From: Octopus vulgaris
Taxonomy: Eukaryota
Assembly: GCA_951406725.2 (NCBI GenBank)
Contig: OX597832.1
Coordinates: forward strand, 64,542,001-64,606,000
DNA length: 64,000 nt
Reading direction: 5' to 3'
Of the stretch, positions 7,782 to 58,420 are shown in pieces (position 1 is the stretch's first letter; each line of letters starts with the position of its first letter). The notes under the pieces are model-generated. The model was not told where the DNA came from, did no database searches, and saw only the letters and a list, made by a program, of their open reading frames with translations. The translations under genes were made by a program, and so were the position numbers.

Positions 7782-8451
7782 GAATCAACGAAGTTAATAA
7801 GAATAATAATTGCACAAAAAGTATATCTAAAGTAAATTAGAGTGATATGTAATTAGAAGACAGAAAAAGCTGTGACGAAGAGGAAACGAAAACAGCGGAG
7901 GTTCCGCTGGCTTCTCTTTACGAAGTAAGAAGATATTTCAGACTTCACCCTCTGGCAAAATCTCTCAGCTTGAAACTTGTTTACGTATTCTTTGTCTAAT
8001 CTACTACATTGATGTATATGCTTCTCTCTCACTCATAACTATTAACATTATTATAATCACCTTCTGCGTAATCTGTCTATCTACGTACAGATTTATATAT
8101 ATATATATATATATGTTTATATATATATATATATATATATATCTTTATGTACTCACACACACACAAACACACACACACACACACAATAGTAACAAGAACA
8201 ATAAGGATAATAACAATATTATTAGCAATATTTGAGTGGAATTTTTAAATATTTTAATGAATCACTACGTGCATTTCCACAAATTACATGTTTCTTACGA
8301 TCATAGCCTGTATGTCTGGGCTGATTTCAACATTACAGTCCGTAGCATCAATGGATATATATATATGTAGGTCCCGGGTTGAGTCGGGGTTAACCACAGT
8401 AAATAAGGTACTCAATACATAGCAGAGTAAATTAATTTATTTTATAGAAGG

Positions 8452-8502
8452 AGCTTCTACAGGACTAGAACTGTTTCATTCAAAAGAAATCATCAGGAAG
8501 CT
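8452..8502 (-). ncRNA. Type I hammerhead ribozyme motif (mirror copy in left palindrome arm)
   Basis: Exact reverse complement of 8512-8562. Confidence 0.75.
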
Positions 8503-8511
8503 AGGTGACCT

Positions 8512-8562
8512 AGCTTCCTGATGATTTCTTTTGAATGAAACAGTTCTAGTCCTGTAGAAGCT
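8512..8562 (+). ncRNA. Type I hammerhead ribozyme motif
   Basis: Stem I AGCTTC/GAAGCT; core CTGATGA 8518-8524; stem II TTC-tttt-GAA behind a U.U pair; GAAA 8537-8540; stem III CAG/CTG; GUA site, cleavage after 8556. Confidence 0.78.
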
Positions 8563-8576
8563 CCTTCTTTAAAAAA

Positions 8577-8649
<73 letters not shown>

Positions 8650-8716
8650 CTCATGACTTAGTGTTTTGCTTCTTTCATGGGTATGAGTAAGTATTTCATT
8701 TATTTATTTGCCACAT

Positions 8717-8776
8717 TTATCACTGACGAAGGGAGGGTTCTTACGAACTAACCCTGAAATCGGTTCGATATGGTAA
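8717..8776 (+). ncRNA. Type I hammerhead ribozyme motif
   Basis: Stem I TTATCA/TGGTAA; CTGACGA 8723-8729; stem II AGGG/CCCT with inner GTTC-ttac-GAAC; GAAA 8756-8759; stem III TCG-gtt-CGA; AUA site at 8768-8770. Confidence 0.82.
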
Positions 8777-8917
8777 TAATGGAATTTTTTAGAAATTTCT
8801 GTCGGCTCCTTTTCGAGTAGCGTGCGTATTGTGAAAAATTATATGGTTAAGGGCAATATGTCCAATTTTCGGCATATCTGGCTTTAGAAATTTTTTCGTT
8901 TGCCCTTATTTATAAGT

Positions 8918-8982
<65 letters not shown>

Positions 8983-9182
8983 GCAAGTTGATGTGTGTGT
9001 ATATAAGTTTATCCTACATTATATAGGCACAGCTCGGTGTGACCCCCAAAACTGGTATTGCCAGTTAGCCTCGTTAGGCTGTAGACCGCATAATATAATA
9101 GGGGCTTTTGTATGCATATTCTAAACGTTTTCCGTAAACAAACTTAAGGAATATACGGTTATTATATATACATCAACCAGCA

Positions 9183-9229
<47 letters not shown>

Positions 9230-9249
9230 GTGTGTGTGTGTGTAAATGT

Positions 9250-9420
9250 AATATGTGACAATTATTCGCTAGCCATGATAAAACTCCGAGTTTCGGATGC
9301 CGAGGTGGAAATCCACGCCGCCATCTCTTCAGTTATCCGGCCATCGGAGAAAATGCCATGAAAAATGACCGTTATACAAGGGGAAATTTTATAATGGCTA
9401 CCGAATAATTGTCACATATT
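9250..9420. mobile_element. PLE-like fragment with 27-bp inverted arms
   Basis: AATATGTGACAATTATTCGCTAGCCAT (9250-9276) versus ATGGCTACCGAATAATTGTCACATATT (9394-9420), one mismatch; encloses an HHR motif. Confidence 0.7.
9277..9337 (-). ncRNA. Type I hammerhead ribozyme motif
   Basis: Minus strand reads GATAA CTGAAGA GATG..GTGGA-tt-TCCAC..CATC C GAAA CTC-g-GAG TT TTATC; near-palindromic stem III; GUU site. Confidence 0.75.
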
Positions 9421-9494
9421 GTATTACAAATAAATTCCTTTATTTACATAATATCGAGGTCTCTTTCTTTCTTTTGTTGTCTTACCGTTTTTAT

Positions 9495-9554
<60 letters not shown>

Positions 9555-9613
9555 TTACAACCTTTATTAAACGGATGTAGTGCGAAACGAAGTTAGTCTT
9601 GTTGCATATTTTG

Positions 9614-9670
<57 letters not shown>

Positions 9671-9898
9671 TATACACACATCTATGTATATATACAGAGA
9701 GAGAGATTATGAGAAGTAATGGTGTCAATAAGGCATAAAGGTATGAGGTAATGCTGAGTAAGTGCTATGGACAGACAATAGTTAAGCTCCAGGTTCGGTG
9801 ATTTTGCGAATAAGGAGTCTAACGTAAGTCATTTATTAGCATGTATATATATAAATATAAATGCACTTTAAATAAAACCCTCAATTCATAATACTATG

Positions 9899-10200
9899 TA
9901 CAAACTCTATACTTGGAATGACCAATTTTAAATTCTATTGGAACTTACTCACAAGGTACTGGAATATTATATGTATACCATTCTGCCTAAATAATGTATG
10001 TACAGATGCAATATCCCTGCATATCTCACGTCTATTTTCTTTCCTCCACTTCACTCTCTATTTCATATCTTATGTAGAATAACTATTACTTAACCATTTT
10101 CTCTCACCGTCTCCGATGAATGGATATATGAAATATCCCAGAAACAGATGTAAGACCTATTTATAAATGTTCAAAAATCTTTTTATCGCATTCTGAAAAC
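9899..10200 (+). mobile_element. PLE-like terminal repeat fragment
   Basis: Colinear homology with 58150-58420; contains an HHR-like motif; abuts (TA)n. Confidence 0.65.
10109..10156 (+). ncRNA. Hammerhead variant motif (CCGAUGA core)
   Basis: Stem I GTCT/AGAC; CCGATGA 10113-10119; stem II GGATAT/ATATCC; GAAA 10141-10144; ACAGATGT, one change from the palindrome ACAGCTGT; GUA site. Confidence 0.65.
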
Positions 10201-10202
10201 CA

Positions 10203-10253
<51 letters not shown>

Positions 10254-10257
10254 TATA

Positions 10258-10340
10258 AAGGGAGATCGGGCGAAAAAGGCCTTTCTCCAGCATGCACTTC
10301 AAACATGCTGGAGAAAGGCCGTTTTAGCCAGATCTTCCTT
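10258..10340. repeat. 83-nt hairpin with a perfect 17-bp inner stem
   Basis: GGCCTTTCTCCAGCATG-cacttcaaa-CATGCTGGAGAAAGGCC, extended imperfectly by AAGGGAGATC.../...GATCTTCCTT. Confidence 0.9.
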
Positions 10341-11261
10341 GACATAATTATGTACATATGTACATAATTATTAATTTAATGTATTAATTGTCTATAAATT
10401 TTTATAGTTTGCTGACTACTTGATAAAACTCATTAATGTGATTTTTATCCTTCTACTATTTTATGAATATATGTATATATATATATATGTATGTATGCGT
10501 GTGTGTACAAACACATATAAACATTCATGTACACACACAGACATACAATAGTCACGCACATCCACACATGCGCCGCATATATCTTATTTTTTGTTACCAA
10601 AAATTTACAAAAGGAGCCTTGAGTTACTTCGATAACTTTCTGTCTATTAGAAATAAGAATTATATATAACCTATGCACATACTCATATATTTGGTTGTAT
10701 TACTTCTAGAATCCTCTCTCATTGATACGTAAGATTTACACAACTTCATAATTCCTTCACACTATTCATATCCAATAGTCATCGGTCATTTTTTCTACAT
10801 TAAGTTGTTTTTATTTGTACTGAACTGTTTTTTCTTTCGTGATATTAATTTCTTTGGACTCTTTATTTGACTTTTCTCTTTTCTTATCATGACTTCTGTC
10901 CGTTTATTCAATTGTTTCTTTCCTTTTAAATAAAAATCATCTGAAAAATATATGCTCTCAGCCATTTTAAACCTCGTAAACACTAGTTGTAGCTACACAT
11001 TGAAATAGTATAAAGAAATGTTACGAAAAAGAAACTATCTCCGGAGAATAGCAACGCGAAAAACAGCCCCAAAACCGCTATGCTGTCACCGGTACCATAT
11101 TTCTTTTGTGAAATATAAAAGATAGAAATAAAGGAATAAATGCCTTTTCTGCTGTTTTTGAGTGATTCCTATTTTTTGCCTTTTTCTTTTTAGCCCTTTT
11201 ATCTTAACATCCTGTTATAAACACCCACTTCAAACTTCCTGAGATAAATATCGCAAACGCC

Positions 11262-11481
11262 ATAGGCACAAGGCAGAAATTTTGAGGGAGGGGTCTAGAC
11301 GATTACATCGTTTCTAGTGTTTCACTGGTACTTAATTTAACGACCCCCGAAAGGATGAAAGGCAAAGTCGACCTCGGCGGAATTTGAACTTAGAACGTAG
11401 CGACGGGCGAAATACCGCCTAGCATTTCATCCGGTGCACTAACGATTCTGCCAGCTAACTGACTTCATGATGATGAAGACA

Positions 11482-11550
<69 letters not shown>

Positions 11551-11760
11551 TAATAATAATAATAATGGTTTCAAATGTTGCCACAAGGGCAGTCATATTG
11601 GGGGCGGATAAGTCGATTAGATCGACTGCAGAGTTTAACTGGTACTTAATTTATCGACTCCGAAAGGATGAAAGGCGAAGTCGACTCGGAACGTATCAAC
11701 GGACGAAATACAGCCTAGCATTTCGTCCAGCGCGCTAACGATTCAGCCAGCTCGACGACT
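11262..11760 (-). mobile_element. Two co-oriented SINE family B copies separated by (AAT)n
   Basis: CCGAAAGGATGAAAGGCAAAGTCGACCTCGGCGGAATTTGAACT core, intact in the first copy and partly deleted in the second. Confidence 0.88.
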
Positions 11761-58130: not shown

Positions 58131-58149
58131 CTCCATCGAATAACACCTT

Positions 58150-58420
58150 TTACAAATCTCTATGCTTCGAATGACCAATTATAAGCAACATTGGAACCCA
58201 CACACAAGGTACAGGAAACTTATATATATACCATTCTGCTCAAATAATGGAACTCCAGATAGAATATCCTTATGTATCTCACTTCTGTTTTCCTTCCTTG
58301 TCTTCACTCTGTATTTCATATCTGCTCAATAATAACTATTGCTTAACCATTTTCTCGCGCTGTCTCTGTCCCAGAAATAGCTATAAGACCTCTTTATAAA
58401 TGTTCTGAAATCTTATGTAT
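58150..58420 (+). mobile_element. PLE-like terminal fragment, paralog of 9899-10200 with the HHR core deleted
   Basis: Shared GAATGACCAATT..CACAAGGTAC..TACCATTCTGC..TTAACCATTTTCTC..CCCAGAAA..TAAGACCT. Confidence 0.7.

What the first reader, a model, noticed from the sequence alone, without database searches (positions are those of the whole stretch)
8440..10200. Hammerhead ribozyme island: four unrelated type I motifs in about 1.7 kb, each module separated by (TA)n
Seen: CUGANGA(-like) / GAAA / NUH cores with closing stems at 8512-8562 (+, plus mirror), 8717-8776 (+), 9277-9337 (-) and 10109-10156 (+). Their stems share no sequence, and each module sits between (TA)n tracts. Known: Penelope-like element terminal repeats carry minimal type I HHRs. 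Inference: several PLE families repeatedly targeted one (TA)n locus, leaving potential self-cleavage sites on both strands. If the region is intronic, they could cut pre-mRNA or release small RNAs.
Basis: partly seen in the sequence, partly recalled or inferred. Interest (0 to 1): 0.85.

Follow-up and report, generated by a model that had tools for sequence, protein, structure and literature searches.

The report
Stacked Penelope retroelement ends carrying hammerheads
The four hammerhead-ribozyme motifs are real, but they are the truncated tail ends of four common jumping-gene families that likely landed one after another in the same TA-repeat tract, and most are predicted to be folded shut or decayed here, so this is an ordinary pile-up and not a regulatory island.

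Summary
All four type I hammerhead motifs are at the stated coordinates, and shuffled sequence gives almost none. Each module belongs to a separate dispersed repeat family of this 2.8-Gb genome (likely an octopus). Modules 1, 3 and 4 are 5'-truncated 3' ends, with inverted arms, of Penelope-like elements showing Hydra-clade motifs; that clade is published as (TA)n-targeting, hammerhead-bearing and present in Octopus bimaculoides. Module 2 is a piece of an ORF-less, about 480-nt retrozyme-like tandem unit. Two more remnants lie between them. Such motifs are common here: 11-21 sites in 400 kb of arbitrary DNA. Roughly 1-16 four-motif clusters are expected per genome by chance, more given a 2.3-fold local enrichment; six families in 2 kb does need that hotspot effect. 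The cleavage idea is weak: motifs 1 and 3 are predicted to be locked in hairpins with their own inverted arms, and motif 4 has decayed. Transcription, intronic position and cleavage are untested. The scan noted a similar stack in another genome. Minor new point: two families, one very young, carry a U4-to-C core.

The parts
8186..8350 (-). Decayed arm of an older fifth repeat family (family X), with a GAAA-palindrome-UA piece at 8277-8266 that may be half of a long-stem-II hammerhead; module 1 abuts it
   Evidence: 71-80% matches to family X loci; motif position; the hammerhead reading is doubtful (105-108-nt insert, weak stems)
8368..8577 (.). Module 1: one Penelope-like insertion = 3' tail (8368-8436) + inverted arm (8437-8506) + sense arm (8508-8577)
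   Evidence: 70-nt arms, 97% complementary; 724 first-look candidates, best sibling 100% over 222 nt; same end lies 2.4 kb behind an RT/GIY-YIG frame in L205
8512..8562 (+). Hammerhead H1, predicted site after 8556
   Evidence: all 10 core positions at the family majority in 52 of 58 siblings
8452..8502 (-). Mirror copy of H1, predicted site after 8458
8577..8646 (.). (TA)35 tract
8646..8919 (+). Module 2: 5'-truncated piece of an ORF-less, about 480-nt head-to-tail unit (retrozyme-like)
   Evidence: 3448 first-look candidates; unit spacing 462-499 nt, 16 spacings; no Penelope protein match in 59 loci, longest ATG frame 36 aa, GC 33%
8717..8776 (+). Hammerhead H2, predicted site after 8770; T8765 replaces the C found in 34 of 34 siblings
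   Evidence: 5 of 19 pairs change on both sides against a diverged subfamily
8920..8978 (.). (TA)29 tract
9008..9173 (+). 3' tail of family X, ending in (TA)n
   Evidence: 466 first-look candidates, 78-84% identity
9186..9229 (.). (TA)22 tract
9245..9496 (-). Module 3: inverted arm with tail (9496-9387) + sense 3' end (9388-9250) of a Hydra-type Penelope-like element
   Evidence: 2283 first-look candidates; 79% and 86% identical to the 3' end of an element with a 717-codon open frame
9277..9337 (-). Hammerhead H3, predicted site after 9282; site and 3' strand of stem I pair with the inverted arm
9497..9553 (.). (TA)28 tract
9554..9615 (+). Remnant of a sixth family: 3' half of stem II and GAAA (9584) of a hammerhead; 5' core and cleavage site missing
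   Evidence: 4 other matches; L314 holds the whole motif
9616..9694 (.). (TA)n tract
9703..10199 (+). Module 4: inverted 3' tail (about 9703-9855) + sense 3' end (about 9864-10199) of an older Hydra-type element
   Evidence: 4898 first-look candidates; tail placement; decayed GIY-YIG region about 1.0 kb upstream of the core in L118/L184, L191 and others
10109..10156 (+). Hammerhead H4, family core CCGAUGA; window copy departs at 10121, 10140 and 10148
   Evidence: stem III self-duplex -5.2 against -13.1 kcal/mol for the family form
10205..10257 (.). (TA)n tract

Best explanation
The region is a stack of four complete and two partial hammerhead-bearing retroelement ends from separate high-copy families, which likely inserted one after another into a (TA)n tract that their endonucleases are thought to target. 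Shown: each module is one member of its own dispersed family; modules 1, 3 and 4 have the inverted-arm-plus-one-sided-tail build of Penelope-like insertions and sit 3' of RT/GIY-YIG frames with Hydra-clade motifs in longer copies; module 2 is part of an ORF-less tandem unit; the families end in (TA)n. Inferred: target-primed reverse transcription from nicked (TA)n left 5'-truncated ends; each insertion left (TA)n on its sides, which served as new targets; insertions came at different times (best sibling identity 100, 95, 89, 92 and 84%); module 2 was moved in trans by such an element. In the parent elements the hammerheads likely cut tandem read-through RNA, mostly as dimers through palindromic stem III (published proposal, not tested here). 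At this locus they are passengers: H1 and H3 are predicted to be paired off by their own inverted arms, H4 has decayed, and only H2 is left as a possible cutter if the locus is transcribed.
For: Family searches (161, 181 and 4147 exact pattern matches for H1, H2 and H3 types, 0 for reversed controls). Other families of the four occur in only 7 cases among 116 sibling loci, so the island does not travel as a unit. ORF links: H3 sister family; H1; H4. Hydra motifs RWK, DKT, CxCX5C, CxxC, CxH and no CCHH in P0002 (against PMC8557442 section 11). Hydra-1_Obim is listed with (TA)n preference and a hammerhead of the same build. (TA)5 at both ends of 29 of 29 M1 siblings, at one or both ends of 27 of 29 M3 siblings, against 6.8% of random windows; within 330 nt downstream of the core in 26 of 28 M2 copies. 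Background 11 strict or 21 family-based sites in 400 kb, 0 in 10 shuffles. Stem I pairing probability falls from 0.83-0.93 (H1) and 0.65-0.99 (H3) alone to 0.0 in the module; the M1 hairpin is -112.6 kcal/mol.
Against: No autonomous parent was found for module 2. Module 3 is tied to an ORF only through a sister subfamily at 79-86% identity. At the BLAST ends only 12 of 29 M2 and 14 of 29 M4 siblings had (TA)5 (those ends are not the true termini). Six families in 2 kb is not expected from uniform placement (0.014 per genome) and only borderline at the measured 2.3-fold enrichment (0.02-0.8), and that enrichment is itself weak (14 near against 13 far, P = 0.036). The rest of the 64-kb window holds no complete motif where 2-3 would be expected. 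No tree was built for clade membership. The H1 family is longer than 4 kb, against 'generally <3 kb' for Hydra.
Confidence: 0.9

Rival explanations
1. The cluster has been co-opted: the hammerheads cut a host transcript on one or both strands, or release small RNAs between sites.
For: H1, H2 and H3 keep all core bases; H2 has no inverted arm and can form a 4-bp stem III with a 3-nt loop; the density here is extreme.
Against: H1 and H3 are predicted to be occluded, with the antisense arm transcribed first in either direction for H1; H4 has three stem departures; the four stems III differ, so they cannot dimerise with each other; intact cores are expected from young age (M1 is 100% identical to a sibling).
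Confidence: 0.04
2. The whole 1.7-2 kb is one composite mobile element or segmental duplication carrying several ribozymes.
For: Regular module-(TA)n-module look.
Against: Among 116 sibling loci only 7 cases of a second of the four families, none with three; module ages differ.
Confidence: 0.02
3. The motifs are chance matches in AT-rich repeat DNA.
For: None of the four folds better than its shuffles at z below -2; Rfam finds none.
Against: 0-2 hits in 1000 shuffles; compensatory changes in all three stems of H2; palindromic stem III and position 3' of Penelope frames as published.
Confidence: 0.01
4. Module 2 is the pseudo-LTR of an autonomous element not found here, and not a separate retrozyme-type family.
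For: It shows the two alternative 3' ends typical of Penelope-like insertions (about 200 and 290 nt after the core); only 2 of 29 siblings found with the monomer query are 480-nt dimers.
Against: Upstream of the core the family runs into its own downstream sequence at 462-499 nt, with no protein match in 59 loci.
Confidence: 0.25

Closest known systems
Hydra clade of C-terminal EN+ Penelope-like elements, including Hydra-1_Obim (Craig et al. 2021, PMC8557442)
   Same: RWK, DKT, CxCX5C, CxxC/CxH motifs, no CCHH; (TA)n insertion; 3' hammerhead with an extra base after A9, an unpaired base before GAA and palindromic stem III; inverted 5'-truncated arms. P0002 matches the printed Hydra-1_Obim N-terminus at 27 of 44 residues (counted by eye).
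   Different: Different families; the H1 family has a 2.4-kb microsatellite-rich 3' UTR; two families have C at core position 4, whereas all 26 Hydra hammerhead rows of File S2 start ctga.
Minimal type I hammerheads of metazoan Penelope-like elements (Cervera and De la Pena 2014, PMC4209133)
   Same: Thousands of dispersed single motifs from truncated copies, many sequence families per genome, pairs on opposite strands, palindromic loop 3, predicted dimers with low in vitro activity.
   Different: H1 and H2 have a 4-bp stem III that could form as a monomer; the parts read do not discuss multi-family stacks.
Animal non-LTR retrozymes (Cervera and De la Pena 2020, PMC7229834; preprint 10.64898/2026.07.22.740005)
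   Same: Module 2 family: non-coding, GC 33%, head-to-tail units each with a type I hammerhead, many dispersed monomers, co-occurring with Penelope-like elements.
   Different: Unit of about 480 nt is slightly above the 150-450 bp quoted; mostly monomers and dimers; circular RNA not shown; no parent pseudo-LTR identified.

Membership tests
Type I hammerhead ribozyme | CUGANGA, GAAA and NUH core | tested here: met
   H1, H2, H3 canonical; H4 has C at position 4, as do 30 of 35 siblings
Type I hammerhead ribozyme | Three stems with open ends in stem I, supported by covariation | tested here: met
   H2: 5 of 19 pairs change on both sides, in all three helices, on 6 hand-picked sequences of two subfamilies; H3 aligned and inspected only; H1 and H4 siblings too alike to test
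Type I hammerhead ribozyme | Match to an Rfam hammerhead model | tested here: not met
   0 at gathering score, none among 63 weak matches
Type I hammerhead ribozyme | Self-cleavage | not testable with these tools
   Needs an in vitro assay
Penelope-like element (modules 1, 3, 4) | Single ORF with RT and C-terminal GIY-YIG upstream of the hammerhead in longer copies | tested here: met
   Pfam support is thin: GIY-YIG E = 0.011, below cut-off; no family for the whole protein
Penelope-like element (modules 1, 3, 4) | 5' truncation, partial tandems, inverted arm, one-sided tail | tested here: met
Hydra clade | RWK and DKT motifs, CxCX5C linker, CxxC and CxH, no CCHH | tested here: met
   All in P0002; CxCX5C, CxxC and CxH in the H1 and H4 family frames, whose N-termini were not held
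Hydra clade | Insertion into (TA)n | tested here: met
   34 of 38 young H3-sister hammerheads are followed by (TA)5 within 190 nt
Hydra clade | Length generally under 3 kb | tested here: inconclusive
   H3-sister unit 2589 nt; H1 family over 4 kb
Hydra clade | Placement in the Hydra clade on an RT tree | not tested
   No reference set held as sequence
Non-LTR retrozyme (module 2) | Non-coding head-to-tail unit with a type I hammerhead per unit, low GC | tested here: met
Non-LTR retrozyme (module 2) | Expressed as linear and circular monomer RNA | tested here: inconclusive
   Only contigs of runs guessed to be RNA were available

The most novel reading that the evidence does not exclude
The youngest, most abundant Hydra-type family in this genome has fixed an attenuated U4-to-C hammerhead core, as has a second family, while inverted arms routinely fold other copies shut: weakened or silenced ribozymes would be favoured because they spare host transcripts in a genome with some 10^5 hammerheads. 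The 480-nt module 2 family would be an octopus retrozyme that makes circular RNA and rides on Hydra-type elements.
Probability: 0.15. Interest if true: 0.55.

Novelty: new member of a known kind. Interest (0 to 1): 0.2.

Why it matters
The locus itself matters little: it shows the known (TA)n targeting of Hydra-type Penelope-like elements. Useful by-products are an estimate of 0.4-2 x 10^5 type I hammerhead sites from at least 27 sequence clusters in this genome, all four window motifs missed by Rfam, a very young family with intact 717-codon frames and a U4C core, and a retrozyme-like family. These give natural variants for asking whether hammerhead cleavage is needed for Penelope-like transposition, which PMC8557442 calls unclear.

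Tried and rejected
Rfam scans found no hammerhead. Pfam and PDB named nothing for the whole 708-aa protein; 1036 unnamed homologues were found. Sequencing runs: no RNA holder listed; only contigs of runs guessed to be RNA, at small shares. Laying four runs on an M2 monomer from L214 gave fragmented cover, no start or end pile-ups, and one end-to-start joint, in the run of unknown kind only; this says nothing for or against expression or circles. Host gene search: of 88 complex open frames of 75 aa or more in the window and 80 kb of flanks, 5 matched RVT_1 retroelement profiles and none a host gene; short exons would be missed, so intronic status is open. The count of inverted arms double-counts overlapping loci and palindromes and is not used. 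Folding predictions ignore core and tertiary contacts, so the low stem I probability for H2 (0.24-0.43 alone, about 0.02 in context) is not counted against it. A hammerhead in family X was considered and left doubtful. Earlier notes on this genome: none.

Full report
Observation. A strict descriptor recovered H2 and H3, and H4 only with a CYGANGA core; 2 of 1000 dinucleotide shuffles of the region gave a hit. A relaxed descriptor recovered H1 on both strands, H2 and H3, missed the window's H4, and gave 0 hits in 1000 shuffles. The motifs share only a 7-nt piece. Rfam finds none of them. (TA)n tracts separate the modules.

Each module is its own family. The genome has 2.8 Gb in 227 contigs; an octopus is inferred from that, from the microsatellite load and from the likeness to Hydra-1_Obim below. 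Searches gave 724, 3448, 2283 and 4898 first-look candidates for modules 1-4 (40 scored each, not copy numbers). Exact patterns gave 161, 181 and 4147 matches for the H1, H2 and H3 types, with 0 for reversed controls. In the 3-kb flanks of 116 best siblings a second of the four families occurred in 7 cases. All 10 core positions were at the family majority in 52 of 58, 31 of 34, 21 of 35 and 21 of 35 siblings. Against a diverged subfamily, 5 of 19 H2 pairs change on both sides, in all three helices (6 hand-picked rows, so few independent events).

Parents. A flank of an H3 sibling held a GIY-YIG-like frame. It belongs to a very young family: all 150 scored matches were 99-100% identical without stops, several in 717-codon frames. 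Its hammerhead lies about 200 nt after the stop, and module 3 matches this end at 79% (sense part) and 86% (inverted arm and tail). The H1 end lies 2.4 kb behind a 587-codon RT/GIY-YIG frame in L205, with the intervening sequence shared by L204 and L208; this protein is 41% identical to P0002. The H4 end lies about 1.0 kb behind decayed GIY-YIG regions in L118/L184, L191 and others. P0002 has RWK, DKT, CxCX5C, CxxC and CxH and lacks CCHH, the traits given for the Hydra clade in PMC8557442 (introduction, section 11, passages and part of the supplement read). That paper lists Hydra-1_Obim with (TA)n preference and a hammerhead of the same build, and describes inverted 5'-truncated copies and one-sided tails. 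Modules 1, 3 and 4 all show that build. No tree was built.

Module 2. Upstream of its core the family runs into its own downstream sequence. Unit spacing is 462-499 nt in 16 measured pairs from a dimer-biased search, but only 2 of 29 siblings from the monomer search were such dimers. There is no Penelope protein match in 59 loci, the longest ATG frame is 36 aa, GC is 33%, and no likeness to the 11 longer element loci tested. This fits non-LTR retrozymes (PMC7229834, passages; preprint 10.64898/2026.07.22.740005, parts 1-3 of 5; its supplements are closed). Circular RNA is untested.

Further pieces. 9554-9615 is the 3' half of a hammerhead from a sixth family, whole in L314. 8186-8350 (-) and 9008-9173 (+) are two parts of a fifth, older family ending in (TA)n; modules 1 and 2 may be nested inside it, which is not proven.

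Is the cluster special? In 40 arbitrary 10-kb stretches the relaxed descriptor found 17 motifs at 11 sites in 10 stretches, and 0 in each of 10 shuffles. A library of 287 motifs in 27 clusters from all fetched loci found 21 sites there, or 0.4-2.2 x 10^5 genome-wide. Other-family sites were 14 within 500 nt of a sibling against 13 in the outer 1000 nt (2.3 times background, P = 0.036). Expected four-motif clusters in 1.7 kb: 1-16 per genome under uniform placement, 15-180 with that enrichment. For six families in 2 kb: at most 0.014 uniform, 0.02-0.8 enriched, though half-motifs were not counted in the density. So the locus is an extreme but explicable hotspot; shared (TA)n targeting is needed. 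(TA)5 flanks both ends of 29 of 29 M1 siblings and at least one end of 27 of 29 M3 siblings, against 6.8% of random windows; the figures were 12 of 29 and 14 of 29 at the BLAST ends of M2 and M4, and 26 of 28 M2 copies have (TA)5 within 330 nt after the core. Best sibling identities of 100, 95, 89, 92 and 84% point to different insertion times.

Would they cut? Module 1 is a hairpin of -112.6 kcal/mol against about -7 for the ribozyme fold, and the antisense arm comes first on either strand. Stem I pairing drops from 0.83-0.93 to 0.0 for H1 and from 0.65-0.99 to 0.0 for H3 in their modules. H4 departs from its family at 10121, 10140 and 10148, and its stem III self-duplex weakens from -13.1 to -5.2 kcal/mol. 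H2 has no inverted arm and remains the one candidate. These are predictions. PMC4209133 (parts 1-2 of 4 read) reports no monomer and low dimer activity for a minimal motif, and the preprint found cleavage in 1 of 9 elements. Transcription and intronic position could not be determined.

What is mildly new. 82 of the first 100 listed H3-type matches (counted) and 30 of 35 H4 siblings have C at core position 4; the 26 Hydra hammerhead rows in File S2 all have U. U4C is known from a viroid, where it lowers activity in vitro yet allows infection (PMC3088659, passage). Searches for hammerhead with Penelope-like and octopus, and for hammerhead ribozyme with cephalopod, listed PMC8557442 and one twister paper; an O. 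vulgaris repeat annotation counts 31 recently active Penelope-like families and does not use the word ribozyme (PMC13282606, passages). The library lacks most subscription papers.

Verdict. Real motifs, known kind, passenger state at this locus. Interest 0.2.

Noticed in passing
window 10257-10450: Member of another repeat family with a short internal inverted repeat next to (TA)n (175 first-look candidates); no hammerhead seen; MITE-like or a truncated end.
   Followed up: partly
L151-L153 (G000 C6:45922500-45929000 and others): Very young Hydra-type family with many near-identical copies and intact 717-codon frames, in tandem and inverted arrays; RT motif reads YKDD; hammerhead core CCGAAGA.
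   Followed up: partly
L205:2976-5419: The H1 family has a 2.4-kb 3' UTR made largely of TA/TG microsatellite-like sequence shared between copies.
   Followed up: partly
L239:2290-4530 (G000 C1 near 20.003 Mb): Seven identical canonical type I hammerheads at about 359-nt spacing, five on + and two on -: a young retrozyme-like tandem array met in an arbitrary stretch.
   Followed up: no
L282, L284 near 1321-1450: Family X has CUGAAGA or CCGAAGA and GAAA-palindrome-UA 105-108 nt apart; possibly a hammerhead with a very long stem II insert.
   Followed up: partly
window 58140-58414: A second, older copy (75% identity) of the module 4 family in the window.
   Followed up: no
window 11250-11460 and 11570-11750: Very abundant interspersed repeats, about 100 matches among the fetched loci; likely SINEs.
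   Followed up: no
L307:684-4493, L304:7701-9998, L305:5341-7675, L303:2197-2748: Non-LTR retrotransposon RT frames in the flanks, one of 1270 codons without a stop.
   Followed up: no
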